A DNA stretch of 64,000 nucleotides from Eledone cirrhosa (lineage: Eukaryota): positions 122,512,001-122,576,000 of the forward strand of contig OZ024744.1 of the NCBI GenBank assembly GCA_964016885.1. Reading direction: 5' to 3'. Position numbers and translations under genes: made by a program. The notes beneath the pieces were generated by a model. It worked only from the letters and a program-made list of their open reading frames with translations, made no database searches and was not told the origin of the DNA. Shown in pieces: positions 5,503 to 49,870 of the stretch (positions are counted from its first letter, which is position 1; every line of letters begins with the position of its first letter).

Positions 5503-5531
5503 TTAGGGTTAGGGTTAGTACTTAGGGTTAG
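5503..5531 (+). repeat. Short telomeric (TTAGGG)n remnant at the junction of the two satellites
   Basis: Reads TTAGGG TTAGGG TTAGTA C TTAGGG TTAG. TTAGGG is the established telomeric hexamer of vertebrates and many other animals. Confidence 0.8.
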
Positions 5532-7149
5532 TCTTGTACTCTGTCACTTAACACCAATGACACTAAGACAGACTTTATCCATGTAATGGACTGGTGTCCT
5601 GTCCAGGGGGAAGTCTTGTACTCTCAACCACTTAACACTAATGACACTAAGACAGAATTTAGCCTTGTGATGCACTGGTGTCCTCTCCAGGGACAGGTCT
5701 TGTACTCTGTCACTTAACACCAATGACACTAAGACAGGCTCTAAAGATGTGATGGACTGGTGTCCTGTCCAGGGGGAAGTCTTGTACTCTGTCACTTAAC
5801 ACTAATGACACTAAGACAGACTTTAACCTTGTGATGGACTGGTGTCCTGTCCAGGGACAAGTCTTGTACTCTGTCACTTAACACCAATGACACTAAGACA
5901 AACTCTAAACATGCAATGGACTGGTGTCTTGTCCAGGGGGAAGTCTTGTACTCTGTCACTTAACACCAATGACACTAAGACAGACTTTAACCTTGTGCTA
6001 GACTGGTGTCCTGTCCAGGGACAGGTCTTGTACTTTGTCACTTAACACCAATGACACTAAGACAGACTTTATCCATGTGATGCACTGGTGTCCTATCCAG
6101 GAGAAGTCTTGTACTCTCCGTCACTTAACACCAATGACACTAAGACAGACTTTAACCTTATGATGCACTGGTGTCCTGTCAAGGAGGAAGTCTTGTACTC
6201 TGTCACTTAAGACCAATGACACTAAGACAGACTTTAACCTTGAGATGCACTGGAGTCCTGTCCAGGAGAAGTCTTGTACTCTGTCACTTAACACCAATGC
6301 CACTAAGACAGACTTTAACCATGTGATGGACTGTTGTCCTGTCCAGGGCCAAGTCTTGTACTCTCCGTCACTTAACACGAATGACACGAAGACAGACTTT
6401 ATCCATGTGATGCACTGGTGTCCTGTCGAGGGAGAAGTCTTGTACTCTGTCACTTAACACCAATGACACTAAGACAGACTTTAACCTTGTGATGCACTGG
6501 TGTCCTGTCCAGGGACAAGTCTTGTAATCTGTCACTTAACACCATGACACTAAGACAGACTTTAGCCTTGTGATGCACTGGTGTCCTGTCCAGGGACAGG
6601 TCTTGTACTCTGTCACTTAACACCAATGACACTAAGACAGGCTCTAAAGATGTGATGGACTGGTGTCCTGTCCAGGGGGAAGTCTTGTACTCTGTCACTT
6701 AACCCCAATGACACTAAGACAGACTTTAACCATATGATGGACTGGTGTCCTGTCCAGGGGGAAGTCTTGTACTCTGTCACTTAACACCAATGACACTAAG
6801 ACAGACTTTAACCATGTGATGGACTGGTGTCCTGTGCAGGGGGAAGTCTTGTTTTCTGTCACTTAACCCCAATGACACTAAGACAGACTTTAACCATGTG
6901 ATGGACTGTTGTCCTGTCCAGGGGGAAGTCTTGTACTCTGTCACTTAACACCAATGACAATAAGTCAGACTTTAACCATGTGATGGATTGGTGACCTGTC
7001 CAGGGACAAGTCTTGTACTCTCAGTCACTTAACACCAATGACACTAAGACAGACTTTAACCATGTGATGGACTGGTGTCCTGTCCAGGGGGAAGTCTTGT
7101 ACTCTGTCACTTAACACCAATGACACTAAGACAGACTTTAACCATGTGA

Positions 7150-10100
7150 TGGACTGGTGTCCTGTCCAGGGGGAAGTCTTGTACTCTCAGCCACTTAACA
7201 CTAATGACACTAAGACAGACTTTAACCTTGTGATGGACTGGTGTCCTGTCCAGGGGGAAGTATTGTACTCTCAGTCACTTAACACCAATGACACTAAGAC
7301 AGACTTTAACCATGTGATGGACTGGTGTCCTGTCCAGGAGAAGTCTTGTACTCTCAGTCACTTAACACCAATGACACTAAGACAGACTATAACCATGTGA
7401 TGGATTGGTGACCTGTCCAGGGACAAGTCTTGTACTCTGTCACTGAACACCAATGACACTAAGACAGACTTTAACCTTTTGATGGACTGGTGTTCTGTCC
7501 AGGAGAAGTCTTGTACTCTCAGTCACTTAACACCAATGACACTAAGACAGGCTCTAAAGATGTGATGGACTGGTGTCCTGTCCAGGGGGAAGTCTTGTAC
7601 TCTGTCACTTAACACTAATGACACTAAGACAGACATTAACCTTGTGAAGGACTGGTGTCCTGTCCCGGGGGAAGTATTGTACTCTCAGTCACTTAACCCC
7701 AATGATACTAAGACAGACTTTAACCTTGTGATAGACTGGTGTCCTGTCCAGGGGGAAGTATTGTACTCTGTCACTTAACACCAATGACACTAAGATAGAC
7801 TGTAACCTTGTGATGGACTGGTGTCCTGTCCAGGGGGAAGTCTTGTACTCTGTCACTTAACACCAATGACACTAAGATGGACTGGTGTCCTGTCCAGGGG
7901 GAAGTCTTGTACTCTGTCACTTAACACTAATGACACTAAGATAGACTTTAACCTTGTGATGGACTGGTGTCCTGTCCAGGGGCAAGTCTTGTACTCTTTC
8001 ACTTAACACTAATGACATTAAGACAGACTTTAACATTGTGATGGACTGGTGTCCTGTCCCGGGGGAAGTATTGTACTCTCAGTCACTTAACACCAATGAC
8101 ACTAAGACAGACGTTAACCATGTGATGGACTGGCGTCCTGTCCAGGAGGAAGTCTTGTACTCTGTCACTTAACACCAATGACAATAAGACAGACTTTAAC
8201 CTTGAGATGCACTGGAGTCCTGTCCAGGAGAAGTCTTGTACTCTGTCACTTAACACCAATGACACTAAGACAGACTTTAACCATGTGATGGACTGGTGTC
8301 CTGTCCAGGGGCAAGTCTTGTACTCTCCGTCACTTAACACGAATGACACGAAGACAGACTTTATCCATGTGATGCACTGGTGTCCTGTCGAGGGAGAAGT
8401 CTTGTACTCTGTCACTTAACACCAATGACACTAAGACAGACTTTAACCTTGTGATGCACTGGTGTCCTGTCCAGGGGGAAGTTTTGTAATCTGTCACTTA
8501 ACACCAATGACACTAAGACAGACATTATCCATGTGATGCACTGGTGTCCTGTCCAGGGGGAAGTCTTGTACTCTCAGCCACTTAACACTAATGACACTAA
8601 GACAGACTTTAAACTTGTGATGGACTGGTGTCCTGTCCAGTGGGAAGTATTGTACTCTCAGTCACTTAACACCAATGACACTAAGATAGACTTTAACCAT
8701 GTAATGGACTGGTGTCCTTTCCAGGGACAAGTCTTGTACTCTGTCACTTAACACCATGACACTAAGACAGACTTTAGCCTTGTGATGCACTGGTGTCCTG
8801 TCCAGGGACAGGTCTTGTACTCTGTCACTTAACACCAATGACACTAAGACAGGCTCTAAAGATGTGATGGACTGGTGTCCTGTCCAGGGGGAAGTCTTGT
8901 ACTCTGTCACTTAACCCCAATGACACTAAGACAGACTTTAACCATGTGATGGACTGGTGTCCTGTCCAGGGGGAAGTCTTGTACTCTGTCACTTAACACC
9001 AATGACACTAAGACAGACTTTAACCATGTGATGGACTGGTGTCCTGTCCAGGGGGAAGTCTTGTACTCTGTCACTTAACCCCAATGACACTAAGACAGAC
9101 TTTAACCATGTGATGGACTGTTGTCCTGTCCAGGGGGAAGTCTTGTACTCTGTCATTTAACACCAATGACACTAAGTAAGACTTTAACCTTGTAATGGAC
9201 TGGTGTCCCGTCCAGGGGGAAGTCTTGTACTCTCAGCCACGTAACACTAATGACACTAAGACAGACTTTAACCTTGTGATGGACTGGTGTCCTGTCCAGG
9301 GGGAAGTATTGTACTCTCAGTCACTTAACACCAATGACACTAAGACAGACTTTAACCATGTGATGGACTGGTGTCCTGTCCAGGGGGAAGTTTTGTACTC
9401 TGTCACATAACACTAATGACACTAAGACAGACTTTAACCTTGTGATGGACTGGTGTCCTGTCCAGGGGGAAGTATTGTACTCTGTCACTTAACACCAATG
9501 ACACTAAGACAGACTTTAACCATGTGATGGACTGGTGTCCTGTCCAGGGGGAAGTAGTTTTGTACTCTGTCACATAACACTAATGACACTAAGACAGACT
9601 TTAACCTTGTGATGGACTGGTGTCCTGTCCAGGGGGAAGTATTGTACTCTGTCACTTAACACCAATGACACTAAGACAGACTTTAACCATGTGATGGACT
9701 GGTGTCCTGTCCAGGGACAAGTCTTGTACTCTGTCACTTAACACCAATGACACTAAGACAAACTCTAAACATGCAATGGACTGGTGTCTTGTCCAGGGAG
9801 AAGTCTTGTACTCTGTCACTTAACACCAATGACACTAAGACAGACTTTAACCTTGTGCTGGACTGGTGTCCTGTCCAGGGACAGGTCTTGTACTTTGTCA
9901 CTTAACACCAATGACACTAAGACAGACTTTATCCATGTGATGCACTGGTGTCCTATCCAGGAGAAGTCTTGTACTCTCCGTCACTTAACACCAATGACAC
10001 TAAGACAGACTTTAACCTAATGATGCACTGGTGTCCTGTCAAGGAGGAAGTCTTGTACTCTGTCACTTAAGACCAATGACACTAAGACAGACTTTAACCT

Positions 10101-13100
10101 TGAGATGCACTGGAGTCCTGTCCAGGAGAAGTCTTGTACTCTGTCACTTAACACCAATGCCACTAAGACAGACTTTAACCATGTGATGGACTGGTGTCCT
10201 GTCCAGGGCCAAGTCTTGTACTCTGTCACTTAACACGAATGACACGAAGACAGACTTTATCCATGTGATGCACTGGTGTCCTGTCGAGGGAGAAGTCTTG
10301 TACTCTGTCACTTAACACCAATGACACTAAGACAGACTTTAACCATATGATGGACTGGTTTCCTGTCCAGGGGGAAGTCTTGTTCTCTGTCACTTAACCC
10401 CAATGACACTAAGACAGACTTTAACCATGTGATGCACTGGTGTCCTGTCCAGGGGGAAGTTTTGTAATCTGTCACTTAACACCAATGACACTAAGACAGA
10501 CATTATCCATGTGATGCACTGGTGTCCTGTCCAGGGGGAAGTCTTGTACTCTCAGCCACTTAACACTAATGACACTAAGACAGACTTTAACCTTGTGATG
10601 GACTGGTGTCCTGTCCAGGGGGAAGTATTGTACTCTCAGTCACTTAACACCAATGACACTAAGACAGACTTTAACCATGTGATGGACTGGTGTCCTGTCC
10701 AGGAGAAGTCTTGTACTCTCAGTCACTTAACACCAATGACACTAAGACAGACTATAACCATGTGATGGATTGGTGACCTGTCCAGGGACAAGTCTTGTAC
10801 TCTGTCACTGAACACCAATGACACTAAGACAGACTTTAACCTTTTGATGGACTGGTGTTCTGTCCAGGAGAAGTCTTGTACTCTCAGTCACTTAACACCA
10901 ATGACACTAAGACAGGCTCTAAAGATGTGATGGACTGGTGTCCTGTCCAGGGGGAAGTCTTGTACTCTGTCACTTAACACTAATGACACTAAGACAGACA
11001 TTAACCTTGTGAAGGACTGGTGTCCTGTCCCGGGGGAAGTATTGTACTCTCAGTCACTTAACCCCAATGATACTAAGACAGACTTTAACCTTGTGATAGA
11101 CTGGTGTCCTGTCCAGGGGGAAGTATTGTACTCTGTCACTTAACACCAATGACACTAAGATAGACTGTAACCTTGTGATGGACTGGTGTCCTGTCCAGGG
11201 GGAAGTCTTGTACTCTGTCACTTAACACCAATGACACTAAGATGGACTGGTGTCCTGTCCAGGGGGAAGTCTTGTACTCTGTCACTTAACACTAATGACA
11301 CTAAGATAGACTTTAACCTTGTGATGGACTGGTGTCCTGTCCAGGGGCAAGTCTTGTACTCTTTCACTTAACACTAATGACATTAAGACAGACTTTAATA
11401 TTGTGATGGACTGGTGTCCTGTCCCGGGGGAAGTATTGTACTCTCAGTCACTTAACACCAATGACACTAAGACAGACGTTAACCATGTGATGGACTGGCG
11501 TCCTGTCCAGGAGGAAGTCTTGTACTCTGTCACTTAACACCAATGACAATAAGACAGACTTTAACCTTGAGATGCACTGGAGTCCTGTCCAGGAGAAGTC
11601 TTGTACTCTGTCACTTAACACCAATGACACTAAGACAGACTTTAACCATGTGATGGACTGGTGTCCTGTCCAGGGGCAAGTCTTGTACTCTCCGTCACTT
11701 AACACGAATGACACGAAGACAGACTTTATCCATGTGATGCACTGGTGTCCTGTCGAGGGAGAAGTCTTGTACTCTGTCACTTAACACCAATGACACTAAG
11801 ACAGACTTTAACCTTGTGATGCACTGGTGTCCTGTCCAGGGGGAAGTTTTGTAATCTGTCACTTAACACCAATGACACTAAGACAGACATTATCCATGTG
11901 ATGCACTGGTGTCCTGTCCAGGGGGAAGTCTTGTACTCTCAGCCACTTAACACTAATGACACTAAGACAGACTTTAAACTTGTGATGGACTGGTGTCCTG
12001 TCCAGTGGGAAGTATTGTACTCTCAGTCACTTAACACCAATGACACTAAGATAGACTTTAACCATGTAATGGACTGGTGTCCTTTCCAGGGACAAGTCTT
12101 GTACTCTGTCACTTAACACCATGACACTAAGACAGACTTTAGCCTTGTGATGCACTGGTGTCCTGTCCAGGGACAGGTCTTGTACTCTGTCACTTAACAC
12201 CAATGACACTAAGACAGGCTCTAAAGATGTGATGGACTGGTGTCCTGTCCAGGGGGAAGTCTTGTACTCTGTCACTTAACCCCAATGACACTAAGACAGA
12301 CTTTAACCATGTGATGGACTGGTGTCCTGTCCAGGGGGAAGTCTTGTACTCTGTCACTTAACACCAATGACACTAAGACAGACTTTAACCATGTGATGGA
12401 CTGGTGTCCTGTCCAGGGGGAAGTCTTGTACTCTGTCACTTAACCCCAATGACACTAAGACAGACTTTAACCATGTGATGGACTGTTGTCCTGTCCAGGG
12501 GGAAGTCTTGTACTCTGTCATTTAACACCAATGACACTAAGTAAGACTTTAACCTTGTAATGGACTGGTGTCCCGTCCAGGGGGAAGTCTTGTACTCTCA
12601 GCCACGTAACACTAATGACACTAAGACAGACTTTAACCTTGTGATGGACTGGTGTCCTGTCCAGGGGGAAGTATTGTACTCTCAGTCACTTAACACCAAT
12701 GACACTAAGACAGACTTTAACCATGTGATGGACTGGTGTCCTGTCCAGGGGGAAGTTTTGTACTCTGTCACATAACACTAATGACACTAAGACAGACTTT
12801 AACCTTGTGATATGACTGGTGTCCTGTCCAGGGGGAAGTATTGTACTCTGTCACTTAACACCAATGACACTAAGACAGACTTTAACCATGTGATGGACTG
12901 GTGTCCTGTCCAGGGGGAAGTAGTTTTGTACTCTGTCACATAACACTAATGACACTAAGACAGACTTTAACCTTGTGATGGACTGGTGTCCTGTCCAGGG
13001 GGAAGTATTGTACTCTGTCACTTAACACCAATGACACTAAGACAGACTTTAACCATGTGATGGACTGGTGTCCTGTCCAGGGACAAGTCTTGTACTCTGT

Positions 13101-13950
13101 CACTTAACACCAATGACACTAAGACAAACTCTAAACATGCAATGGACTGGTGTCTTGTCCAGGGAGAAGTCTTGTACTCTGTCACTTAACACCAATGACA
13201 CTAAGACAGACTTTAACCTTGTGCTGGACTGGTGTCCTGTCCAGGGACAGGTCTTGTACTTTGTCACTTAACACCAATGACACTAAGACAGACTTTATCC
13301 ATGTGATGCACTGGTGTCCTATCCAGGAGAAGTCTTGTACTCTCCGTCACTTAACACCAATGACACTAAGACAGACTTTAACCTAATGATGCACTGGTGT
13401 CCTGTCAAGGAGGAAGTCTTGTACTCTGTCACTTAAGACCAATGACACTAAGACAGACTTTAACCTTGAGATGCACTGGAGTCCTGTCCAGGAGAAGTCT
13501 TGTACTCTGTCACTTAACACCAATGCCACTAAGACAGACTTTAACCATGTGATGGACTGGTGTCCTGTCCAGGGCCAAGTCTTGTACTCTGTCACTTAAC
13601 ACGAATGACACGAAGACAGACTTTATCCATGTGATGCACTGGTGTCCTGTCGAGGGAGAAGTCTTGTACTCTGTCACTTAACACCAATGACACTAAGACA
13701 GACTTTAACCATATGATGGACTGGTTTCCTGTCCAGGGGGAAGTCTTGTTCTCTGTCACTTAACCCCAATGACACTAAGACAGACTTTAACCATGTGATG
13801 CACTGGTGTCCTGTCCAGGGGGAAGTTTTGTAATCTGTCACTTAACACCAATGACACTAAGACAGACATTATCCATGTGATGCACTGGTGTCCTGTCCAG
13901 GGGGAAGTCTTGTACTCTCAGCCACTTAACACTAATGACACTAAGACAGA
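7150..13950 (+). repeat. Tandem duplication, period 3365/3366 bp (about 41 monomers)
   Basis: ORF-track pairs 7821/11186, 8083/11448 and 9195/12560 (offset 3365), and 9702/13068 (3366). The 3-bp insertion GAAGTAGTTTTG is seen only at 9551 and 12917. Confidence 0.95.
7223..7306 (+). mobile_element. Representative monomer, probably derived from a SINE central domain (MetaSINE-like; the same motif occurs in fish V-SINE/Mermaid 3' regions). Not an intact element.
   Basis: TAACCTTGTGATGGACTGGTGTCCTGTCCAGGGGGAAGTATTGTACTCTCAGTCACTT is collinear with my recollection of the Meta domain (approximately TAACCCTGCGATGGACTAGCATCCCATCCAGGGGGAGTAGAAATACTCCTAGTCGCTT). This is from memory with no database search. 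No tRNA-derived head or A/B boxes are present. Confidence 0.6.
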
Positions 13951-16900
13951 CTTTAAACTTGTGATGTACTGGTGTCCTGTCCAGTGGGAAGTATTGTACT
14001 CTCAGTCACTTAACACCGATGACACTAAGATAGACTTTAACCATGTAATGGACTGGTGTCCTTTCCAGGGACAAGTCTTGTACTCTGTCACTTAACACCA
14101 TGACACTAAGACAGACTTTAGCCTTGTGATGCACTGGTGTCCTGTCCAGGGACAGGTCTTGTACTCTGTCACTTAACACCAATGACACTAAGACAGGCTC
14201 TAAAGATGTGATGGACTGGTGTCCTGTCCAGGGGGAAGTCTTGTACTCTGTCACTTAACCCCAATGACACTAAGACAGACTTTAACCATATGATGTACTG
14301 GTTTCCTGTCCAGGGGGAAGTCTTGTTCTCTGTCACTTAACCCCAATGACACTAAGACAGACTTTAACCATGTGATGGACTGTTGTCCTGTCCAGGGGGA
14401 AGTCTTGTACTCTGTCACTTAACACCAATGACACTAAGTCAGACTTTAACCTTGTAATGGACTGGTGTCCTGTCCAGGGGGAAGTCTTGTACTCTCAGCC
14501 ACTTAACACTAATGACACTAAGACAGACTTTAACCTTGTGATGGACTGGTGTCCTGTCCAGGGGGAAGTATTGTACTCTCAGTCACTTAACACCAATGAC
14601 ACTAAGACAGACTTTAACCATGTGATGGACTGGTGTCCTGTCCAGGAGAAGTCTTGTACTCTCAGTCACTTAACACCAATGACACTAAGACAGACTTTAA
14701 CCATGTGATGGATTGGTGACATGTCCAGGGACAAGTCTTGTACTCTGTCACTGAACACCAATGACACTAAGACAGACTTTAACCTTTTGATGGACTGGTG
14801 TTCTGTCCAGGAGAAGTCTTGTACTCTCAGTCACTTAACACCAATGACACTAAGACAGGCTCTAAAGATGTGATGGACTGGTGTCCTGTCCAGGGGGAAG
14901 TCTTGTACTCTGTCACTTAACACTAATGACACTAAGACAGACATTAACCTTGTGAAGGACTGGTGTCCTGTCCCGGGGGAAGTATTGTACTCTCAGTCAC
15001 TTAACCCCAATGATACTAAGACAGACTTTAACCTTGTGATAGACTGGTGTCCTGTCCAGGGGGAAGTATTGTACTCTGTCACTTAACACCAATGACACTA
15101 AGATAGACTGTAACCTTGTGATGGACTGGTGTCCTGTCCAGGGGGAAGTCTTGTACTCTGTCACTTAACACCAATGACACTAAGATGGACTGGTGTCCTG
15201 TCCAGGGGGAAGTCTTGTACTCTGTCACTTAACACTAATGACACTAAGATAGACTTTAACCTTGTGATGGACTGGTGTCCTGTCCAGGGGCAAGTCTTGT
15301 ACTCTTTCACTTAACACTAATGACATTAAGACAGACTTTAACATTGTGATGGACTGGTGTCCTGTCCCGGGGGAAGTATTGTACTCTCAGTCACTTAACA
15401 CCAATGACAATAAGACAGACGTTAACCATGTGATGGACTGGCGTCCTGTCCAGGAGGAAGTCTTGTACTCTGTCACTTAACACCAATGACACTAAGACAG
15501 ACTTTAACCTTGAGATGCACTGGAGTCCTGTCCAGGAGAAGTCTTGTACTCTGTCACTTAACACCAATGACACTAAGACAGACTTTAACCATGTGATGGA
15601 CTGGTGTCCTGTCCAGGGGCAAGTCTTGTACTCTCCGTCACTTAACACGAATGACACGAAGACAGACTTTATCCATGTGATGCACTGGTGTCCTGTCGAG
15701 GGAGAAGTCTTGTACTCTGTCACTTAACACCAATGACACTAAGACAGACTTTCACCTTGTGATGCACTGGTGTCCTGTCCAGGGGGAAGTTTTGTAATCT
15801 ATCACTTAACACCAATGACACTAAGACAGACATTATCCATGTGATGCACTGGTGTCCTGTCCAGGGGGAAGTCTTGTACTCTCAGCCACTTAACACTAAT
15901 GACACTAAGACAGACTTTAAACTTGTGATGGACTGGTGTCCTGTCCAGTGGGAAGTATTGTATTCTCAGTCACTTAACACCAATGACACTAAGATAGACT
16001 TTAACCATGTAATGGACTGGTGTCCTTTCCAGGGACAAGTCTTGTACTCTGTCACTTAACACCATGACACTAAGACAGACTTTAGCCTTGTGATGCACTG
16101 GTGTCCTGTCCAGGGACAGGTCTTGTACTCTGTCACTTAACACCAATGACACTAAGACAGGCTCTAAAGATGTGATGGACTGGTGTCCTGTCCAGGGGGA
16201 AGTCTTGTACTCTGTCACTTAACCCCAATGACACTAAGACAGACTTTAACCATGTGATGGACTGGTGTCCTGTCCAGGGGGAAGTCTTGTACTCTGTCAC
16301 TTAACACCAATGACACTAAGACAGACTTTAACCATGTGATGGACTGGTGTCCTGTCCAGGGGGAAGTCTTGTACTCTGTCATTTAACACCAATGACACTA
16401 AGTAAGACTTTAACCTTGTAATGGACTGGTGTCCTGTCCAGGGGGAAGTCTTGTACTCTCAGCCACGTAACACTAATGACACTAAGACAGACTTTAACCT
16501 TGTGATGGACTGGTGTCCTGTCCAGGGGGAAGTATTGTACTCTCAGTCACTTAACACCAATGACACTAAGACAGACTTTAACCATGTGATGGACTGGTGT
16601 CCTGTCCAGGGGGAAGGTTTGTACTCTGTCACATAACACTAATGACACTAAGACAGACTTTAACCTTGTGATGGACTGGTGTCCTGTCCAGGGGGAAGTA
16701 TTGTACTCTGTCACTTAACACCAATGACACTAAGACAGACTTTAACCATGTGATGGACTGGTGTCCTGTCCAGGGGGAAGTTTTGTACTCTGTCACATAA
16801 CACTAATGACACTAAGACAGACTTTAACCTTGTGATGGACTGGTGTCCTGTCCAGGGGGAAGTATTGTACTCTGTCACTTAACACCAATGACACTAAGAC

Positions 16901-17019
16901 AGACTTTAACCATGTGATGGACTGGTGTCCTGTCCAGGGACAAGTCTTGTACTCTGTCACTTAACACCAATGACACTAAGACAGACTTTAACCTTATGAT
17001 GCACTGGTGTCCTGTCAAG

Positions 17020-20000
17020 GAGGAAGTCTTGTACTCTGTCACTTAAGACCAATGACACTAAGACAGACTTTAACCTTGAGATGCACTGGAGTCCTGTCCA
17101 GGAGAAGTCTTGTACTCTGTCACTTAACACCAATGCCACTAAGACAGACTTTAACCATGTGATGGACTGGTGTCCTGTCAAGGGCCAAGTCTTGTACTCT
17201 GTCACTTAACACGAATGACACGAAGACAGACTTTATCCATGTGATGCACTGGTGACCTGTCGAGGGAGAAGTCTTGTACTCTGTCACTTAACACCAATGA
17301 CACTAAGACAGACTTTAACCTTGTGATGCACTGGTGTCCTGTCCAGGGGGAAGTTTTGTAATCTGTCACTTAACACCAATGACACTAAGACAGACATTAT
17401 CCATGTGATGCACTGGTGTCCTGTCCAGGGGGAAGTATTGTACTCTCAGCCACTTAACACTAATGACACTAAGACAGACTTTAAACTTGTGATGGACTGG
17501 TGTCCTGTCCAGTGGGAAGTCTTGTACTCTCAGTCACTTAACACCGATGACACTAAGATAGACTTTAACCATGTAATGGACTGGTGTCCTTTCCAGGGAC
17601 AAGTCTTGTACTCTGTCACTTAACACCATGACACTAAGACAGACTTTAGCCTTGTGATGCACTGGTGTCCTGTCCAGGGACAGGTCTTGTACTCTGTCAC
17701 TTAACACCAATGACACTAAGACAGGCTCTAAAGATGTGATGGACTGGTGTCCTGTCCAGGGGGAAGTCTTGTACTCTGTCACTTAACCCCAATGACACTA
17801 AGACAGACTTTAACCATATGATGGACTGGTGTCCTGTCCAGGGGGAAGTCTTGTACTCTGTCACTTAACACCAATGACACTAAGACAGACTTTAACCATG
17901 TGATGGACTGGTGTCCTGTCCAGAGGGAAGTCTTGTACTCTGTCACTTAACACCAATGACACTAAGACCAACTTTAACCATGTGATGGACTGGTGTCCTG
18001 TCCAGGGGGAAGTCTTGTTCTCTGTCACTTAACCCCAATGACACTAAGACAGACTTTAACCATGTGATGGACTGTTGTCCTGTCCAGGGGGAAGTCTTGT
18101 ACTCTGTCACTTAACACCAATGACACTAAGTCAGACTTTAACCTTGTAATGGACTGGTGTCCTGTCCAGGGGGAAGTCTTGTACTCTCAGCCACTTAACA
18201 CTAATGACACTAAGACAGACTTTAACCTTGTGATGGACTGGTGTCCTGTCCAGGGGGAAGTATTGTACTCTCAGTCACTTAACACCAATGATACTAAGAC
18301 AGACTTTAACCATGTGATGGACTGGTGTCCAGTCCAGGAGAAGTCTTGTACTCTCAGTCACTTAACACCAATGACACTAAGACAGACTATAACCATGTGA
18401 TGGATTGGTGACCTGTCCAGGGACAAGTCTTGTACTCTGTCACTGAACACCAATGACACTAAGACAGACTTTAACCTTTTGATGGACTGGTGTTCTGTCC
18501 AGGAGAAGTCTTGTACTCTCAGTCACTTAACACCAATGACACTAAGACAGGCTCTAAAGATGTGATGGACTGGTGTCCTGTCCAGGGGGAAGTCTTGTAC
18601 TCTGTCACTTAACACTAATGACACTAAGACAGACTTTAACCTTGTGATGGACTGGTGTCCTGTCCCGGGGGAAGTATTGTACTCTCAGTCACTTAACCCC
18701 AATGATACTAAGACAGACTTTAACCTTGTGATAGACTGGTGTCCTGTCCAGGGGGAAGTATTGTACTCTGTCACTTAACACCAATGACACTAAGATAGAC
18801 TGTAACCTTGTGATGGACTGGTGTCCTGTCCAGGGGGAAGTCTTGTACTCTGTCACTTAACACCAATGACACTAAGATGGACTGGTGTCCTGTCCAGGGG
18901 GAAGTCTTGTACTCTGTCACTTAAGACCAATGACACTAAGACAGACTTTAACCTTGAGATGCACTGGAGTCCTGTCCAGGAGAAGTCTTGTACTCTGTCA
19001 CTTAACACCAATGCCACTAAGACAGACTTTAACCATGTGATGGACTGGTGTCCTGTCAAGGGCCAAGTCTTGTACTCTGTCACTTAACACGAATGACACG
19101 AAGACAGACTTTATCCATGTGATGCACTGGTGTCCTGTCGAGGGAGAAGTCTTGTACTCTGTCACTTAACACCAATGACACTAAGACAGACTTTAACCTT
19201 GTGATGCACTGGTGTCCTGTCCAGGGGGAAGTTTTGTAATCTGTCACTTAACACCAATGACACTAAGACAGACATTATCCATGTGATGCACTGGTGTCCT
19301 GTCCAGGGGGAAGTATTGTACTCTCAGCCACTTAACACTAATGACACTAAGACAGACTTTAAACTTGTGATGGACTGGTGTCCTGTCCAGTGGGAAGTCT
19401 TGTACTCTCAGTCACTTAACACCGATGACACTAAGATAGACTTTAACCATGTAATGGACTGGTGTCCTTTCCAGGGACAAGTCTTGTACTCTGTCACTTA
19501 ACACCATGACACTAAGACAGACTTTAGCCTTGTGATGCACTGGTGTCCTGTCCAGGGACAGGTCTTGTACTCTGTCACTTAACACCAATGACACTAAGAC
19601 AGGCTCTAAAGATGTGATGGACTGGTGTCCTGTCCAGGGGGAAGTCTTGTACTCTGTCACTTAACCCCAATGACACTAAGACAGACTTTAACCATATGAT
19701 GGACTGGTGTCCTGTCCAGGGGGAAGTCTTGTACTCTGTCACTTAACACCAATGACACTAAGACAGACTTTAACCATGTGATGGACTGGTGTCCTGTCCA
19801 GGGGGAAGTCTTGTACTCTGTCACTTAACACCAATGACACTAAGACAGACTTTAACCATGTGATGGACTGGTGTCCTGTCCAGGGGGAAGTCTTGTTCTC
19901 TGTCACTTAACCCCAATGACACTAAGACAGACTTTAACCATGTGATGGACTGTTGTCCTGTCCAGGGGGAAGTCTTGTACTCTGTCACTTAACACCAATG

Positions 20001-20800
20001 ACACTAAGTCAGACTTTAACCTTGTAATGGACTGGTGTCCTGTCCAGGGGGAAGTCTTGTACTCTCAGCCACTTAACACTAATGACACTAAGACAGACTT
20101 TAACCTTGTGATGGACTGGTGTCCTGTCCAGGGGGAAGTATTGTACTCTCAGTCACTTAACACCAATGACACTAAGACAGACTTTAACCATGTGATGGAC
20201 TGGTGTCCTGTCCAGGAGAAGTCTTGTACTCTCAGTCACTTAACACCAATGACACTAAGACAGACTATAACCATGTGATGGATTGGTGACCTGTCCAGGG
20301 ACAAGTCTTGTACTCTGTCACTGAACACCAATGACACTAAGAGAGACTTTAACCTTTTGATGGACTGGTGTTCTGTCCAGGAGAAGTCTTGTACTCTCAG
20401 TCACTTAACACCAATGACACTAAGACAGGCTCTAAAGATGTGATGGACTGGTGTCCTGTCCAGGGGGAAGTCTTGTACTCTGTCAGTTAACACTAATGAC
20501 ACTAAGACAGACTTTAACCTTGTGATGGACTGGTGTCCTGTCCCGGGGGAAGTATTGTACTCTCAGTCACTTAACCCCAATGATACTAAGACAGACTTTA
20601 ACCTTGTGATAGACTGGTGTCCTGTCCAGGGGGAAGTATTGTACTCTGTCACTTAACACCAATGACACTAAGATAGACTGTAACCTTGTGATGGACGGGT
20701 GTCCTGTCCAGGGGGAAGTCTTGTACTCTGTCACTTAACACCAATGACACTAAGATGGACTGGTGTCCTGTCCAGGGGGAAGTCTTGTACTCTGTCACTT
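17020..20800 (+). repeat. Tandem duplication, period 1878 bp (about 23 monomers)
   Basis: Pairs 17405/19283, 17534/19412, 18149/20027 and 18821/20699. Marker ACTTAAGACC at 17041 and 18919. Confidence 0.93.
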
Positions 20801-22004
20801 AACACTAATGACACTAAGATAGACTTTAACCTTGTGATGGACTGGTGTCCTGTCCAGGGGCAAGTCTTGTACTCTTTCACTTAACACTAATGACATTAAG
20901 ACAGACTTTAACATTGTGATGGACTGGTGTCCTGTCCCGGGGGAAGTATTGTACTCTCAGTCAATTAACACCAATGACAATAAGACAGACGTTAACCATG
21001 TGATGGACTGGCGTCCTGTCCAGGAGGAAGTCTTGTACTCTGTCACTTAACACCAATGACACTAAGACAGACTTTAACCTTGTGATGGACTGGTGTCCTG
21101 TCCAATGGGAAGTATTGTACTCTGTCACTTAACACTAATGACATTAAGACAGACTTTAACATTGTGATGGACTGGTGTCCTGCCCCAGGGGAAGTATTGT
21201 ACTCTCAGTCACTTAACACCAATGACACTAAGACAGACTTTATCCATGTGATGCACTGGTGTCCTATCCAGGAGAAGTCTTGTACTCTCCGTCACTTAAC
21301 ACCAATGACACTAAGACAGAGTTTAACCATGTGATGGACTGGTGTCCTGTCCAGGGGGAAGTCTTGTACTGTATCACTTAACACCAATGACACTAAGACA
21401 GAGTTTAACCATGTGATGGACTAGTGTCCTGTCCAGGGGGAAGTCTTGTACTGTATCACTTAACACCAATGCCACTAAGACAGACTTTAACTTTGTGATG
21501 GATTGATGTCCTGTCCAGGGACAAGTCTTGTACTCTGTCACTTAACCCCAATGTAACTAAGACAGACTTTAACCATGTGATGGACTGGCGTCCTGTCAAG
21601 GAGGAAGTCTTGTACTCTGTCACTTAACACCAATGACACTAGGACAGACTTTAAGCTTGTGATGCACTGGTGTCCTGTCCAGGGGGAAGTCTTGTAATCT
21701 GTCACTTAACACCAATGACACTAAGACAGACTTTATCCATGTGATTGACTGGTGTCCTGTCCAGGGGGAAGTCTTGTACTCTGTCACTTAACACCAATGA
21801 CACTAAGACAGACTTTAACCATGTGATGGACTGGTGTCCTGTCCAGCGGGAAGTCTTGTACTCTCAGTCACTTAACACCAATGACACTAAGACAGACTTT
21901 AACAATGTGATGGACTGGTGTCCTGTCCAGGGACAAGTCTTGTACTCTGTCACTTAACACCAATGACACTAAGACAAATTCTAAACATGCAATGGACTGG
22001 TGTC

Positions 22005-25000
22005 TTGTCCAGGGGAAAGTCTTGTACTCTGTCACTTAACACCAATGACACTAAGACAGACTTTATCCATGTGATGCACTGGTGTCCTGTCCAGGAGAAG
22101 TCTTGTACTCTGTCACTTAACACCAATGACACTAAGACAGACTTTAACCATGTGATGGACTGGTGTCCTGTCCAGGGGCAAGTCTTGTACTCTCCGTCAC
22201 TTAACACGAATGACACGAAGACAGACTTTATCCATGTGATGCACTGGTGTCCTGTCCAGGGAGAAGTCTTGTACTCTGTCACTTAACACCAATGACACTA
22301 AGACAGACTTTAACCTTGTGATGCACTGGTGTCCTGTCGAGGGGGAAGTCTTGTACTCTGTCACTTAACACCAATGACACTAAGACAGACTTTAACCTTG
22401 TGATGCACTGGTGTCCTGTCCAGGGGGAAGTTTTGTAATCTGTCACTTAACACCAATGACACTAAGACAGACATTATCCATGTGATGCACTGGTGTCCTG
22501 TCCAGGGGGAAGTCTTGTACTCTCAGCCACTTAACACTAATGACACTAAGACAGACTTTAAACTTGTGATGGACTGGTGTCCTGTCCAGTGGGAAGTATT
22601 GTACTCTCAGTCACTTAACACCAATGACACTAAGATAGACTTTAACCATGTAATGGACTGGTGTCCTGTCCAGGGGGAAGTCTTGTACTCTGTCACTTAA
22701 CACCAATGACACTAAGACAGACTTTAACCATGTGATGGACTGGTGTCCTGTCCAGGGGGAAGTCTTGTACTCTGTCACTTAACACCATGACACTAAGACA
22801 GACTTTAGCCTTGTGATGCACTGGTGTCCTGTCCAGGGACAGGTCTTGTACTCTGTCACTTAACACCAATGACACTAAGACAGGCTCTAAAGATGTGATG
22901 GACTGGTGTCCTGTCCAGGGGGAAGTCTTGTACTCTGTCACTTAACCCCAATGACACTAAGACAGACTTTAACCATGTGATGGACTGGTGTCCTGTCCAG
23001 GGGGAAGTCTTGTACTCTGTCACTTAACACCAATGACACTAAGACAGACTTTAACCATGTGATGGACTGTTGTCCTGTCCAGGGGGAAGTCTTGTACTCT
23101 GTCATTTAACACCAATGACACTAAGTAAGACTTTAACCTTGTAATGGACTGGTGTCCTGTCCAGGGGGAAGTCTTGTACTCTCAGCCACTTAACACTAAT
23201 GACACTAAGACAGACTTTAATCTTGTGATGGACTGGTGTCCTGTCCAGGGGGAAGTATTGTACTCTGTCACTTAACACCAATGACACTAAGACAGACTTT
23301 AACCATGTGATGGACTGGTGTCCTGTCCAGGGGGAAGTCTTGTACTCTGTCACTTAAAACCAATGACACTAAGACAGACTTTAACCATGTGATGGACTGG
23401 TGTCCTGTCCAGGGGGAAGTCTTGTACTCTGTCACTTAACCCCAATGACACTAAGACAGACTTTAGCCATGTGATGGACTGTTGTCCTGTCCAGGGGAAA
23501 GTCTTGTACTCTGTCATTTAACACCAATGACACTAAGTAAGACTTTAACCTTGTAATGGACTGGTATCCTGTCCAGGGGGAAGTCTTGTACTCTCAGCCA
23601 CTTAACACTAATGACACTAAGACAGACTTTAACCTTGTGATGGACTGGTGTCCTGTCCAGGGGGAAGTATTGTACTCTCAGTCACTTAACACCAATGACA
23701 CTAAGACAGACTTTAACCATGTGATGGACTGGTGTCCTGTCCAGGGGAAGTCTTGTACTCTCAGTCACTTAACACCAATGACACTAAGACAGACTATAAC
23801 CATGTGATGGATTGGTGACCTGTCCAGGGACAAGTCTTGTACTCTGTCACTGAACACCAATGACACTAAGACAGACTTTAACCTTTTGATGGACTGGTGT
23901 TCTGTCTAGGAGAAGTCTTGTACTCTCAGTCACTTAACACCAATGACACTAAGACAGGCTCTAAAGATGTGATGGACTGGTGTCCTGTCCAGGGGAAAGT
24001 CTTGTACTCTGTCACTTAACACCAATGACACTAAGACAGACTTTATCCATGTGATGCACTGGTGTCCTGTCCAGGAGAAGTCTTGTACTCTGTCACTTAA
24101 CACCAATGACACTAAGACAGACTTTAACCATGTGATGGACTGGTGTCCTGTCCAGGGGCAAGTCTTGTACTCTCCGTCACTTAACACGAATGACACGAAG
24201 ACAGACTTTATCCATGTGATGCACTGGTGTCCTGTCCAGGGAGAAGTCTTGTACTCTGTCACTTAACACCAATGACACTAAGACAGACTTTAACCTTGTG
24301 ATGCACTGGTGTCCTGTCGAGGGGGAAGTCTTGTACTCTGTCACTTAACACCAATGACACTAAGACAGACTTTAACCTTGTGATGCACTGGTGTCCTGTC
24401 CAGGGGGAAGTTTTGTAATCTGTCACTTAACACCAATGACACTAAGACAGACATTATCCATGTGATGCACTGGTGTCCTGTCCAGGGGGAAGTCTTGTAC
24501 TCTCAGCCACTTAACACTAATGACACTAAGACAGACTTTAAACTTGTGATGGACTGGTGTCCTGTCCAGTGGGAAGTATTGTACTCTCAGTCACTTAACA
24601 CCAATGACACTAAGATAGACTTTAACCATGTAATGGACTGGTGTCCTGTCCAGGGGGAAGTCTTGTACTCTGTCACTTAACACCAATGACACTAAGACAG
24701 ACTTTAACCATGTGATGGACTGGTGTCCTGTCCAGGGGGAAGTCTTGTACTCTGTCACTTAACACCATGACACTAAGACAGACTTTAGCCTTGTGATGCA
24801 CTGGTGTCCTGTCCAGGGACAGGTCTTGTACTCTGTCACTTAACACCAATGACACTAAGACAGGCTCTAAAGATGTGATGGACTGGTGTCCTGTCCAGGA
24901 GGAAGTCTTGTACTCTGTCACTTAACCCCAATGACACTAAGACAGACTTTAACCATGTGATGGACTGGTGTCCTGTCCAGGGGGAAGTCTTGTACTCTGT

Positions 25001-25975
25001 CACTTAACACCAATGACACTAAGACAGACTTTAACCATGTGATGGACTGTTGTCCTGTCCAGGGGGAAGTCTTGTACTCTGTCATTTAACACCAATGACA
25101 CTAAGTAAGACTTTAACCTTGTAATGGACTGGTGTCCTGTCCAGGGGGAAGTCTTGTACTCTCAGCCACTTAACACTAATGACACTAAGACAGACTTTAA
25201 TCTTGTGATGGACTGGTGTCCTGTCCAGGGGGAAGTATTGTACTCTGTCACTTAACACCAATGACACTAAGACAGACTTTAACCATGTGATGGACTGGTG
25301 TCCTGTCCAGGGGGAAGTCTTGTACACTGTCACTTAACACCAATGACACTAAGACAGACTTTAACCATGTGATGGACTGGTGTCCTGTCCAGGGGGAAGT
25401 CTTGTACTCTGTCACTTAACCCCAATGACACTAAGACAGACTTTAGCCATGTGATGGACTGTTGTCCTGTCCAGGGGGAAGTCTTGTACTCTGTCATTTA
25501 ACACCAATGACACTAAGTAAGACTTTAACCTTGTAATGGACTGGTGTCCTGTCCAGGGGGAAGTCTTGTACTCTCAGCCACTTAACACTAATGACACTAA
25601 GACAGACTTTAACCTTGTGATGGACTGGTGTCCTGTCCAGGGGGAAGTATTGTACTCTCAGTCACTTAACACCAATGACACTAAGACAGACTTTAACCAT
25701 GTGATGGACTGGTGTCCTGTCCAGGGGAAGTCTTGTACTCTCAGTCACTTAACACCAATGACACTAAGACAGACTATAACCATGTGATGGATTGGTGACC
25801 TGTCCAGGGACAAGTCTTGTACTCTGTCACTGAACACCAATGACACTAAGACAGACTTTAACCTTTTGATGGACTGGTGTTCTGTCTAGGAGACGTCTTG
25901 TACTCTCAGTCACTTAACACCAATGACACTAAGACAGGCTCTAAAGATGTGATGGACTGGTGTCCTGTCCAGGGG
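22005..25975 (+). repeat. Tandem duplication, period 1980 bp (about 24 monomers)
   Basis: Pairs 22482/24462, 22693/24673, 23102/25082 and 23556/25536. Marker AGGGGAAAGT at 22011 and 23991. Confidence 0.93.
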
Positions 25976-28900
25976 GAAGTCTTGTACTCTGTCACTTAAC
26001 ACTAATGACACTAAGACAGACTTTAACCTTGTGATGGACTGGTGTCCTGTCCCGGGGGAAGTATTGTACTCTCAGTCACTTAACCCCAATGATACTAAGA
26101 CAGACTTTATCCTTGTGATAGACTGGTGTCCTGTCCAGGGGGAAGTATTGTACTCTGTCACTTAACACCAATGACACTAAGATAGACTGTAACCTTGTGA
26201 TGGACTGGTGTCCTGTCCAGGGGGAAGTCTTGTACTCTGTCACTTAACACTAATGACACTAAGATAGACTTTAACCTTGTGATGGACTGGTGTCCTGTCC
26301 AGGGGCAAGTCTTGTACTCTTTCACTTAACACTAATGACATTAAGACAGACTTTAACATTGTGATGGACTGGTGTCCTGTCCCGGGGGAAGTATTGTACT
26401 CTCAGTCACTTAACACCAATGACAATAAGACAGACGTTAACCATGTGATGGACTGGCGTCCTGTCCAGGAGGAATTCTTGTACTCTGTCACTTAACACCA
26501 ATGACACTAAGACAGACTTTAACCTTGTGATGGACTGGTGTCCTGTCCAATGGGAAGTATTGTACTCTGTCACTTAACACCAATGACACTAAGACAGAGT
26601 TTAACCATGTGATGGACTGGTGTACTGTCCAGGGGGAAGTCTTGTACTGTATCACTTAACACCAATGACACTAAGACAGACTTTAACCTTGTGATGCACT
26701 GGTGTCCTGTCCAGGGGGAAGTTTTGTAATCTGTCACTTAACACCAATGACACTAAGACAGACATTATCCATGTGATGCACTGGTGTCCTGTCCAGGGGG
26801 AAGTCTTGTACTCTCAGCCACTTAACACTAATGACACTAAGACAGACTTTAAACTTGTGATGGACTGGTGTCCTGTCCAGTGGGAAGTATTGTACTCTCA
26901 GTCACTTAACACCAATGACACTAAGATAGACTTTAACCATGTAATGGACTGGTGTCCTGTCCAGGGGGAAGTCTTGTACTCTGTCACTTAACACCAATGA
27001 CACTAAGACAGACTTTAACCATGTGATGGACTGGTGTCCTGTCCAGGGGGAAGTCTTGTACTCTGTCACTTAACACCATGACACTAAGACAGACTTTAGC
27101 CTTGTGATGCACTGGTGTCCTGTCCAGGGACAGGTCTTGTACTCTGTCACTTAACACCAATGACACTAAGACAGGCTCTAAAGATGTGATGGACTGGTGT
27201 CCTGTCCAGGGGGAAGTCTTGTACTCTGTCACTTAACCCCAATGACACTAAGACAGACTTTAACCATGTGATGGACTGGTGTCCTGTCCAGGGGGAAGTC
27301 TTGTACTCTGTCACTTAACACCAATGACACTAAGACAGACTTTAACCATGTGATGGACTGTTGTCCTGTCCAGGGGGAAGTCTTGTACTCTGTCATTTAA
27401 CACCAATGACACTAAGTAAGACTTTAACCTTGTAATGGACTGGTGTCCTGTCCAGGGGGAAGTCTTGTACTCTCAGCCACTTAACACTAATGACACTAAG
27501 ACAGACTTTAATCTTGTGATGGACTGGTGTCCTGTCCAGGGGGAAGTATTGTACTCTGTCACTTAACACCAATGACACTAAGACAGACTTTAACCATGTG
27601 ATGGACTGGTGTCCTGTCCAGGGGGAAGTCTTGTACTCTGTCACTTAAAACCAATGACACTAAGACAGACTTTAACCATGTGATGGACTGGTGTCCTGTC
27701 CAGGGGGAAGTCTTGTACTCTGTCACTTAACCCCAATGACACTAAGACAGACTTTAGCCATGTGATGGACTGTTGTCCTGTCCAGGGGAAAGTCTTGTAC
27801 TCTGTCATTTAACACCAATGACACTAAGTAAGACTTTAACCTTGTAATGGACTGGTATCCTGTCCAGGGGGAAGTCTTGTACTCTCAGCCACTTAACACT
27901 AATGACACTAAGACAGACTTTAACCTTGTGATGGACTGGTGTCCTGTCCAGGGGGAAGTATTGTACTCTCAGTCACTTAACACCAATGACACTAAGACAG
28001 ACTTTAACCATGTGATGGACTGGTGTCCTGTCCAGGGGAAGTCTTGTACTCTCAGTCACTTAACACCAATGACACTAAGACAGACTATAACCATGTGATG
28101 GATTGGTGACCTGTCCAGGGACAAGTCTTGTACTCTGTCACTGAACACCAATGACACTAAGACAGACTTTAACCTTTTGATGGACTGGTGTTCTGTCTAG
28201 GAGAAGTCTTGTACTCTCAGTCACTTAACACCAATGACACTAAGACAGGCTCTAAAGATGTGATGGACTGGTGTCCTGTCCAGGGGAAAGTCTTGTACTC
28301 TGTCACTTAACACCAATGACACTAAGACAGACTTTATCCATGTGATGCACTGGTGTCCTGTCCAGGAGAAGTCTTGTACTCTGTCACTTAACACCAATGA
28401 CACTAAGACAGACTTTAACCATGTGATGGACTGGTGTCCTGTCCAGGGGCAAGTCTTGTACTCTCCGTCACTTAACACGAATGACACGAAGACAGACTTT
28501 ATCCATGTGATGCACTGGTGTCCTGTCCAGGGAGAAGTCTTGTACTCTGTCACTTAACACCAATGACACTAAGACAGACTTTAACCTTGTGATGCACTGG
28601 TGTCCTGTCGAGGGGGAAGTCTTGTACTCTGTCACTTAACACCAATGACACTAAGACAGACTTTAACCTTGTGATGCACTGGTGTCCTGTCCAGGGGGAA
28701 GTTTTGTAATCTGTCACTTAACACCAATGACACTAAGACAGACATTATCCATGTGATGCACTGGTGTCCTGTCCAGGGGGAAGTCTTGTACTCTCAGCCA
28801 CTTAACACTAATGACACTAAGACAGACTTTAAACTTGTGATGGACTGGTGTCCTGTCCAGTGGGAAGTATTGTACTCTCAGTCACTTAACACCAATGACA

Positions 28901-34100: not shown

Positions 34101-34445
34101 ACTAAGACAGACTTTAACCTTGTGATGGACTGGTGTCCTGTCCAATGGGAAGTATTGTACTCTGTCACTTAACACCAATGACACTAAGACAGAGTTTAAC
34201 CATGTGATGGACTGGTGTACTGTCCAGGGGGAAGTCTTGTACTGTATCACTTAACACCAATGACACTAAGACAGACTTTAACCTTGTGATGCACTGGTGT
34301 CCTGTCCAGGGGGAAGTTTTGTAATCTGTCACTTAACACCAATGACACTAAGACAGACATTATCCATGTGATGCACTGGTGTCCTGTCCAGGGGGAAGTC
34401 TTGTACTCTCAGCCACTTAACACTAATGACACTAAGACAGACTTT
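28325..34445 (+). repeat. Duplication at offset 3304 bp (about 40 monomers)
   Basis: Pairs 28753/32057, 29373/32677 and 29827/33131. GAATTC at 30763 and 34067. Confidence 0.92.
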
Positions 34446-49400: not shown

Positions 49401-49870
49401 CACTAATGACACTAAGACAGACTTTAATCTTGTGATGGACTGGCGTCCTGTCCAGGAGGAAGTCTTGTACTCTGTCACTTAACACCAATGACACTAAGAC
49501 AGACTTTAACCTTGAGATGCACTGGAGTCCTGTCCAGGAGAAGTCTTGTACTCTGTCACTTAACACCAATGACACTAAGACAGACTTTAACCATGTGATG
49601 GACTGGTGTCCTGTCCAGGGGCAAGTCTTATACTCTCCGTCACTTAACACGAATGACACGAAGACAGACTTTATCCTTGTGATGCACTGGTGTCCTGTCG
49701 AGGGAGAAGTCTTGTACTCTGTCACTTAACACCAATGACACTAAGACAGACTTTAACCTTGTGATGCACTGGTGTCCTGTCCAGGGGGAAGTTTTGTAAT
49801 CTGTCACTTAACACCAATGACACTAAGACAGACATTATCCATGTGATGCACTGGTGTCCTGTCCAGGGGG
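33760..49870 (+). repeat. About 7.6-kb duplication at offset 8479/8561 bp
   Basis: Pairs 34368/42847, 39800/48279 and 40830/49309 (offset 8479), and 35207/43768 and 37694/46255 (8561, one monomer more). GAATTC at 34067/42546 and AAGCTT at 39706/48185. Confidence 0.93.

What the first reader, a model, noticed from the sequence alone, without database searches (positions are those of the whole stretch)
7226..7287. Each monomer can form a hairpin plus pseudoknot on the + strand: possible structured or self-processing satellite RNA
Seen in this monomer: stem CCUUG(7226-30)/CAGGG(7251-55) stacked on GAUGG(7232-36)/CUGUC(7246-50), using G-U wobbles that work only on the + strand. The loop hexamer UGGUGU(7239-44) is exactly complementary to downstream ACACCA(7282-87). 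A small hairpin AGUA/UACU (7259-69) lies between them. A competing pairing GACUGG/UCAGUC (7236-41/7271-76) exists in 84-bp units. In my recollection of the invertebrate Meta domain the same positions read TAGCAT/ATGCTA and GACTAG/CTAGTC, which would be compensatory covariation. Established precedent: tandem satellites encoding self-cleaving RNA exist (newt satellite 2, schistosome Sm-alpha hammerheads). No hammerhead core is present here, so any catalytic role is speculation. Variants inside the array (ACCCCA, TGTTGT, TGGAGT) are not compensated, so the fold may be inherited and not under current selection.
Basis: partly seen in the sequence, partly recalled or inferred. Interest (0 to 1): 0.75.

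Follow-up and report, generated by a model that had tools for sequence, protein, structure and literature searches.

The report
SINE-derived satellite with inherited pseudoknot
This repeat is a cut-down tail of a small jumping gene (a SINE) copied in tandem; its predicted RNA knot is likely an old feature of that SINE's RNA, but it is broken in most repeat copies and no known self-cutting RNA motif was found.

Summary
All pairings named are in the sequence. The flagged monomer is a best case: hairpin plus pseudoknot are intact in 82 of 694 monomers, paired columns are not conserved, and the monomer folds no better than shuffles. The 82/84-bp unit is the 3' part of a tRNA-headed, CORE-type SINE with thousands of dispersed copies in this genome; a 34-nt deletion removed the SINE's two last hairpins. 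The SINE segment has close relatives in coral-type SINEs from public metagenomes. Between the two lineages the pseudoknot shows two compensated pairs (my own null, P about 0.01), so the fold is probably real in SINE RNA and merely inherited by the satellite. It is not the Meta domain. No hammerhead core and no Rfam match; no RNA run was listed. The same unit forms at least 31 short arrays, nearly all on three small contigs, many inside older SINE copies, which fits DNA-level spread by homology. Verdict: a SINE-derived satellite (known kind) carrying a decaying fossil of an apparently undescribed SINE pseudoknot; not a satellite ribozyme.

The parts
5530..64000 (+). 82/84-bp satellite array; continues beyond the window to about G000:C28:122,631,750 (about 114 kb in all). 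Starts mid-unit, directly after the 25-bp repeat, with no SINE head or promoter at this edge
   Evidence: TRF period 82, 708.5 copies; junction; array end in L351
7221..7308 (+). One unit aligned to the SINE 3' part: begins at a TTTAA word and ends at the SINE's 3' terminus, which carries the same TTTA word (likely the microhomology of the first duplication)
   Evidence: alignment to SINE majority; microhomology role inferred
7226..7255 (+). Predicted hairpin: outer stem 7226-30/7251-55, one bulged base, inner stem 7232-36/7246-50, 9-nt loop
   Evidence: kept in the SINE family majorities, one end pair lost in C2
7239..7244 (+). 5' strand of the predicted pseudoknot helix
7282..7287 (+). 3' strand of the predicted pseudoknot helix
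7259..7269 (+). Small hairpin; 6-7 pairs in the SINEs, closed by a GNRA loop in coral-type families; four pairs intact in 134 of 694 monomers
7271..7276 (+). Partner of the competing pairing with 7236-41; broken in two of five SINE family majorities; in the predicted SINE folds O1 and C1 its AGUC pairs with the 3'-terminal GACU instead
7288..7303 (+). Deletion junction (between 7294 and 7295) where 34 nt of the SINE tail, holding its two last hairpins, are missing; followed by the SINE terminus

Best explanation
The monomer is a shortened 3' segment of a tRNA-headed CORE-type SINE amplified as a satellite, and its predicted hairpin-plus-pseudoknot is likely a structure of the SINE's RNA that the satellite inherited and is now losing. 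Shown: origin from the SINE, the 34-nt deletion, decay of pairing in the array, and the same unit in at least 31 short arrays, many flanked by SINE heads or tails. Inferred: (1) the fold was kept by selection on actively retrotransposing SINE RNA, most likely as part of the surface that a LINE protein binds; (2) the unit arose in one methylated genomic copy (all four CpGs decayed) by duplication across a TTTA microhomology; (3) it spread as DNA, by ectopic gene conversion, template switching or circle re-insertion seeded by homology to resident SINE copies; (4) the 114-kb array grew by unequal exchange.
For: Origin: 4859 genome matches to a loose pattern against 0 for the reversed control; CORE-like body upstream in 72 of 84 dispersed copies; unit-to-SINE alignment. 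Fold in SINEs: the pseudoknot is fully paired in all 7 family majorities; own-genome versus coral-type majorities differ at 8 of 47 columns, 4 of them forming two compensated pseudoknot pairs and 2 being wobble-neutral, P about 0.009 under my null; 91.6% of cells paired against 12-50% for slid controls; GNRA loop variants GAAA 54, GCAA 9, GTAA 7 of 133; sense-strand z of -3.4 for two coral-type tails against -1.7 antisense for one of them. Decay in the array: 44 of 55 single alleles break a pair, no double change in the pseudoknot, paired columns not more conserved. DNA spread: 12 of 32 array loci have a SINE head or CORE, 17 a full-type tail, 6 both; median divergence heads 9.6%, tails 21%, units 2.1%; arrays sit on C25-C28 with one on C3 while the SINE is on nearly all contigs; one array ends in an inverted SINE head and two are flanked by long direct duplications.
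Against: The covariation rests on essentially two lineages plus the satellite. All compensated changes are transitions, two of the three sit on CpG sites, and the helices were chosen by eye before the null was run. Copy-level double CpG decays show no excess of compensation (2,5,2,6; p=1). The count of pairs with double change does not beat the tool's shuffles (360 of 500). The competing pairing is as well paired in the alignment (92.8%) and has one double change. No LINE sharing this segment was found (30 top RT loci; five RTE-tail loci with one full-length element), so the binding role is unproven. Low unit divergence may partly reflect homogenisation inside arrays. Target-site duplications could not be read in TA-rich flanks. 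The lists of array places were cut at 100 rows.
Confidence: 0.75

Rival explanations
1. The pseudoknot is a coincidence. Only the simple hairpins of the SINE tail are real, and the compensated pairs come from transitions and CpG decay in two lineages.
For: Few independent events; 2.7% of shuffles give such a knot, 25% with relaxed criteria; no copy-level compensation; own-genome SINE and satellite are predicted to close the loop with a 3-pair extension.
Against: Fully paired in 7 of 7 family majorities; one compensated pair is not at a CpG; P about 0.009; in the three coral-type majorities folded, the 9-nt loop is predicted open; loop lengths fit an H-type knot (established knowledge).
Confidence: 0.15
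2. The unit is a self-processing or circular RNA of a new kind. SINE heads would drive multimeric Pol III transcripts, these would be cut and circularised to 84-nt circles, and rolling reverse transcription with template switches to SINE RNA would create head-(unit)n-tail insertions, as retrozymes do.
For: Dozens of short arrays of one young unit at unrelated sites; 6 of 32 loci have both SINE head and tail, and L319's head is 97% identical to the majority; the unit majority has no run of four T; the unit keeps exactly the pseudoknot module, and a coral-type 67-bp tandem unit does so independently; 189 of 301 units in short arrays keep the fold.
Against: No CUGANGA on either strand; no Rfam ribozyme match; paired columns vary as much as or more than unpaired ones; tails flanking the arrays are old and of several subfamilies; arrays cluster on three small contigs although retrotransposition in this genome is dispersed; a ribozyme inside a SINE would cut its own template (argued in PMC5786205).
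Confidence: 0.05
3. The fold matters at DNA level: a single-stranded hairpin stalls replication and so makes this segment duplicate repeatedly, in this genome (84 and 110-113 bp units) and in coral-type genomes (67 bp).
For: Three independent tandem units all contain the hairpin.
Against: Each unit's ends are explained by short direct repeats alone (TTTA; ATGCT); the hairpin relies on G-U pairs that are weak in DNA (established knowledge); DNA folding was not computed.
Confidence: 0.05

Closest known systems
SINE-derived satellites (sSats) of squamate reptiles, Vassetzky et al. 2023, PMC10702118 (abstract, first part of Results and Discussion read)
   Same: Unit shorter than the SINE and within their 70-290 nt range; a few to hundreds of units per locus; terminal units extend into SINE sequence, sometimes at both ends; one unit variant dominates many loci.
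   Different: An invertebrate host; the unit carries an internal deletion and a predicted pseudoknot (a word search for 'secondary structure' in that paper found nothing); flanking SINE parts differ in age and subfamily between loci; one array reaches about 114 kb.
Rsp-like satellite inserting into 1.688 clusters in Drosophila, Sproul et al. 2020, PMC7403614 (passages read)
   Same: A young repeat seeds new short arrays where a homologous resident repeat already sits; regional clustering; complex junctions; gene conversion or circular DNA proposed.
   Different: Here the resident target is a dispersed SINE and the homology is long (the unit's own parent); no circular DNA data here.
Structured 3' tails of stringent SINE/LINE pairs, e.g. 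bivalve V- and CORE-SINE tails with compensatory changes (PMC4824008, parts 1-4 of 6 read; PMC5786205, parts 1-3 of 5 read)
   Same: 3' position after a conserved body; conserved stems with compensatory changes; tail swapping (6 of 84 copies carry an extra RTE-type tail).
   Different: Those tails are described as stem-loops; the partner LINE of this segment was not found, so it may be a body module and not a true LINE-derived tail.
Non-LTR retrozymes, newt satellite 2, schistosome Sm-alpha (PMC7229834, passages read)
   Same: Dispersed short tandem arrays of a structured unit in an animal genome.
   Different: No hammerhead; 84 nt against about 300 nt; clear SINE origin; no evidence of transcripts.
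Meta/MESC domain SINEs (PMC4824008; PMC4758252 passages and part 1 of 5 of supplement 4)
   Same: Conserved across distant animal phyla inside tRNA-derived SINEs.
   Different: Different position and, by eye, different sequence.

Membership tests
SINE-derived satellite (sSat) | Tandem unit homologous to part of a SINE of the same genome and shorter than it | tested here: met
SINE-derived satellite (sSat) | Loci with four or more units whose terminal units extend into SINE sequence | tested here: met
   12 of 32 loci with head/CORE, 17 with tail, 6 both
SINE-derived satellite (sSat) | Homogeneity within and between loci | tested here: met
   301 units from 29 loci average 2.5% from their majority; window 84-bp units 7.1%
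SINE-derived satellite (sSat) | Preference for subtelomeric regions | tested here: inconclusive
   Window array lies 14 Mb from the end of a 136-Mb contig beside a telomere-like repeat; short arrays are spread along C25-C27
tRNA-derived CORE-type SINE (parent) | tRNA-like head with Pol III boxes | tested here: inconclusive
   Rfam tRNA matches below the gathering score in 4 of 14 loci, best 28.1 of 29 bits; ARAGORN 0 of 12; A and B boxes recognised by eye
tRNA-derived CORE-type SINE (parent) | CORE domain after the head | tested here: inconclusive
   A shared body in 72 of 84 own copies and 90 of 132 scorable coral-type copies; naming it CORE is recalled, no reference sequence was aligned
tRNA-derived CORE-type SINE (parent) | 3' tail shared with a partner LINE | tested here: inconclusive
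   Not found in 30 RT loci or 5 RTE-tail loci; other LINE families not examined
MetaSINE / Meta domain | 66-bp domain immediately after the tRNA head | tested here: not met
   Segment starts about 165 nt after the SINE's 5' end; definition
MetaSINE / Meta domain | Sequence similarity to the Meta/MESC consensus | tested here: not met
   Compared by eye with sequences; no alignment run; the Meta alignment itself is a figure and was not seen
Hammerhead retrozyme / satellite ribozyme | Hammerhead core and three stems in each unit | tested here: not met
   0 CUGANGA on either strand of the array; no Rfam match
Hammerhead retrozyme / satellite ribozyme | Monomeric linear and circular transcripts; self-cleavage | not testable with these tools
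   No RNA run available; needs bench work
HDV-like, twister, pistol, hatchet ribozymes | Family fold and catalytic residues | tested here: not met
   No Rfam match at E up to 10; recalled short motifs absent from all five SINE majorities (loose motifs matched 17 and 32 times in 58 kb of array); the 9-nt loop leaves no room for the HDV P3 hairpin (inference)

The most novel reading that the evidence does not exclude
The pseudoknot module, conserved between cnidarian-type and cephalopod-type SINEs, is a new self-processing RNA. Its minimal 84-nt form became a circular-RNA parasite of its own parent SINE, inserting as rolling-circle multimers between SINE heads and tails, and a 67-bp coral-type unit repeated the feat independently.
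Probability: 0.05. Interest if true: 0.85.

Novelty: new member of a known kind. Interest (0 to 1): 0.33.

Why it matters
As a satellite it is ordinary in kind, but it shows the whole path in one genome: dispersed SINE, short arrays inside SINE copies, and a 114-kb block. That makes the mechanism of satellite birth testable at orthologous sites. The more durable point is the SINE segment: why SINE modules stay conserved across phyla is an open question (PMC4824008, PMC5804259), and here a specific pseudoknot with compensated pairs gives a probe-able hypothesis. I found no description of it; Repbase, Dfam, most subscription journals and figures were not searchable.

Tried and rejected
Rfam on window 5000-9000: 0 matches at E up to 10; on 14 SINE and array loci: only weak tRNA matches in heads and below-threshold matches elsewhere, mostly in low-complexity flanks. 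Viral contigs: 3 chance matches. Prokaryote genome contigs: 62 matches, 21 are coral-type host SINE DNA inside assembled bins, 41 look like chance. No vertebrate relative was retrieved; I recall a related segment in teleost SINE tails but could not fetch it, and the V-SINE paper was not held. Partner LINE: the top RT family has a different tail; a full-length RTE-like element L396 has no match to the module's model with filters off. A CUGAUGA word in the deleted part of some SINE tails was considered as a hammerhead and rejected: no GAA follows in any of five majorities. Target-site duplication search was uninformative. Segmental duplication as the cause of dispersed arrays was rejected because flanks share only short stretches, up to 321 nt, that look like other repeats (inferred). 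Supplement searches for the motif found nothing relevant in PMC4824008, PMC4758252, PMC11481361, PMC5786205; file 1 was unreadable for the first two, and alignments held as pictures could hide a prior description. Earlier scan notes near this place or by sequence: none.

Full report
Observation. The window holds a 25-bp telomere-like repeat (1-5516) and an 82/84-bp satellite from 5530 to the end. They are modestly unlikely by chance: 40 of 1500 shuffles under strict criteria, 370 of 1500 under relaxed ones. The monomer folds no better than shuffles (z +0.64 and -0.35), and its predicted minimum-energy fold closes the loop that the pseudoknot needs. The flagged copy is a best case. Of 694 monomers (158 distinct; 8 units of 146 bp left out), 82 keep both stems and the loop pairing, and 58 keep all four helices. 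Paired columns are not more conserved than unpaired ones (1.63 against 1.39 alleles per column, p=0.27), 44 of 55 single alleles break a pair, and the pseudoknot shows no double change. The array is therefore not under detectable selection for this fold.

Origin. A loose pattern from the hairpin matches 4859 places in the own genome and its reversed control none. I read 90 of the first 100 places, dropped 6 that belong to the same short tandem arrays, and found a shared body upstream in 72 of 84. The majority element has a tRNA-like head, a body I recognise from recall as CORE, this segment, two more hairpins and a short terminal repeat. Head identity is only weakly confirmed by tools. The host is probably an octopus; this rests on my recall of the SINE type and on genome size, not on a call. 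The satellite unit runs from a TTTAA word to the SINE's 3' end and lacks 34 nt that hold the two last hairpins. All four CpGs of the SINE segment have decayed in the unit, and the array has 197 CpG against about 2970 expected, so the unit likely came from a methylated genomic copy.

Not the Meta domain. The Meta domain follows the tRNA head immediately (PMC4824008), and the equivalent MESC sequences (PMC4758252 supplement) share only a short word with the monomer by eye. I call these coral-type from recall.

Is the fold real in the SINE? Majorities of seven groups (own O1 60 and O2 24 copies; coral-type C1 81, C2 34, C3 11, tandem 7; satellite unit) all keep the six pseudoknot pairs. O1 and C1 differ at 8 of 47 columns: four form two compensated pseudoknot pairs, two turn G-U into Watson-Crick pairs, two swap G-U and G-C at the base of the small hairpin. 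Placing eight transitions at random keeps all 16 pairs with two compensations in about 0.9% of trials. The satellite adds a third compensated pair, of CpG type. On a 79-row alignment (2 satellite, 35 own, 41 coral-type, 1 other; 18 rows with evident indels were dropped from a random draw of 94, which favours pairing) the pseudoknot is 91.6% paired against 12-50% when slid, with 3 of 6 pairs changed on both sides. The small hairpin keeps a GNRA loop through three variants in coral-type copies, and the last hairpin has a G-C to U-A variant in 3 copies. Two coral-type tails fold at z -3.4 on the sense strand. Against this: two lineages only, transitions only, post hoc helices, no compensation among double CpG decays in single copies, and 360 of 500 shuffles reach the same number of doubly changed pairs. 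The competing pairing is equally well paired overall with one double change but is broken in C2 and C3. I put the pseudoknot as a real SINE RNA feature at about 80%.

Function in the SINE. By position and by precedent (stems with compensatory changes in bivalve SINE and LINE tails, PMC4824008) the likeliest role is part of the surface that a LINE protein binds. This is inferred. No LINE with this segment was found among 30 top RT loci or five RTE-tail loci, one of them full length. Six of 84 copies have gained an RTE-type tail behind the segment and kept it, so it may act as a body module. Earlier scan notes describe other pseudoknots in RTE elements and SINEs of this genome; my model did not match the one RTE element tested, so I treat them as a parallel only.

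How the satellite spread. Two exact junction patterns give 647 and 629 matches; among the first 100 places of each, none lies on C1, C2 or C4-C24, one array is on C3, and the rest are on C25-C28, while the SINE itself is on nearly all contigs. I read 32 loci, which are 31 arrays of 3 to more than 40 units. Twelve have a SINE head or CORE on the 5' side, 17 a full-type tail on the 3' side, 6 both; four loci did not reach one end. Heads are a median 9.6% and tails 21% from the SINE majorities, units 2.1% from theirs. One head belongs to another SINE family (L335), one array ends in an inverted SINE head (L336), and two are flanked by long direct duplications (L328, L348). A young unit inside old, varied SINE copies in a few chromosomal regions fits gene conversion, template switching or circular-DNA re-insertion, as proposed for Rsp-like in Drosophila (PMC7403614). 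The window's own array has no head and runs about 114 kb.

Ribozyme reading. No hammerhead core occurs on either strand and Rfam has no match. What keeps the reading alive is that the unit retains exactly the pseudoknot module, that a 67-bp coral-type tandem unit does the same, that 189 of 301 units in short arrays keep the fold, and that L319 has a near-intact Pol III head in front of about 30 units. Short direct repeats explain the unit ends without RNA, and paired columns in short arrays vary more, not less (4.3 against 3.5 events per column, p=0.03). I give it 5%.

Comparison and verdict. [quoted passage not shown] It is a new member of that kind, in an invertebrate. The part not found in print is the covarying pseudoknot in a SINE segment shared by two distant phyla. 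Papers seen: PMC4824008 parts 1-4 and supplement search; PMC5786205 parts 1-3 and supplement passages; PMC4758252 passages and one supplement part; PMC11481361, PMC5804259, PMC7403614, PMC7229834 passages; PMC10702118 abstract, first part of Results, Discussion; all others as search listings only. Interest 0.33.

Noticed in passing
window 1-5516; L317, L357-L359: A 25-bp repeat built on telomere-like TTAGGG words runs at least 60 kb upstream of the satellite, 14 Mb inside the contig; it ends in a few perfect TTAGGG words right at the satellite junction.
   Followed up: partly
G000 C25-C27 and C3; L318-L350: At least 31 short arrays of the same 84-bp unit, many inside different older SINE copies and clustered on three small contigs.
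   Followed up: yes
L016-L023 (C1:18.28 Mb and 20.43 Mb): A second tandem family of 110-113 bp units covering the whole SINE tail, near-identical at two sites 2 Mb apart.
   Followed up: no
L056, L079, L084, L124, L149, L151, L153: Coral-type 67-bp tandem units that contain only the pseudoknot module, bounded by an ATGCT direct repeat.
   Followed up: partly
L031, L036, L243, L244, L263, L264; L370-L394: A SINE subfamily with an extra tail of about 115 nt shared with another CORE-type SINE and, in its last part, with an RTE-like LINE (L396); this tail seems to hold its own hairpin with a loop pairing, seen by eye only.
   Followed up: partly
L112: A metagenome SINE with a different head and body but the same 3' segment; its pseudoknot and small hairpin carry mismatches (single copy).
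   Followed up: no
L173-L223 (21 loci): Animal SINE DNA inside prokaryote genome bins, 16 loci in one bin: host contamination of these assemblies.
   Followed up: no
window 7812-7947 and seven other places: A 146-bp variant (one unit plus an 18-bp-deleted unit) recurs at multi-kb spacing, marking higher-order duplication in the array.
   Followed up: no
L336: A short array ends in an inverted SINE head, a fold-back junction.
   Followed up: no
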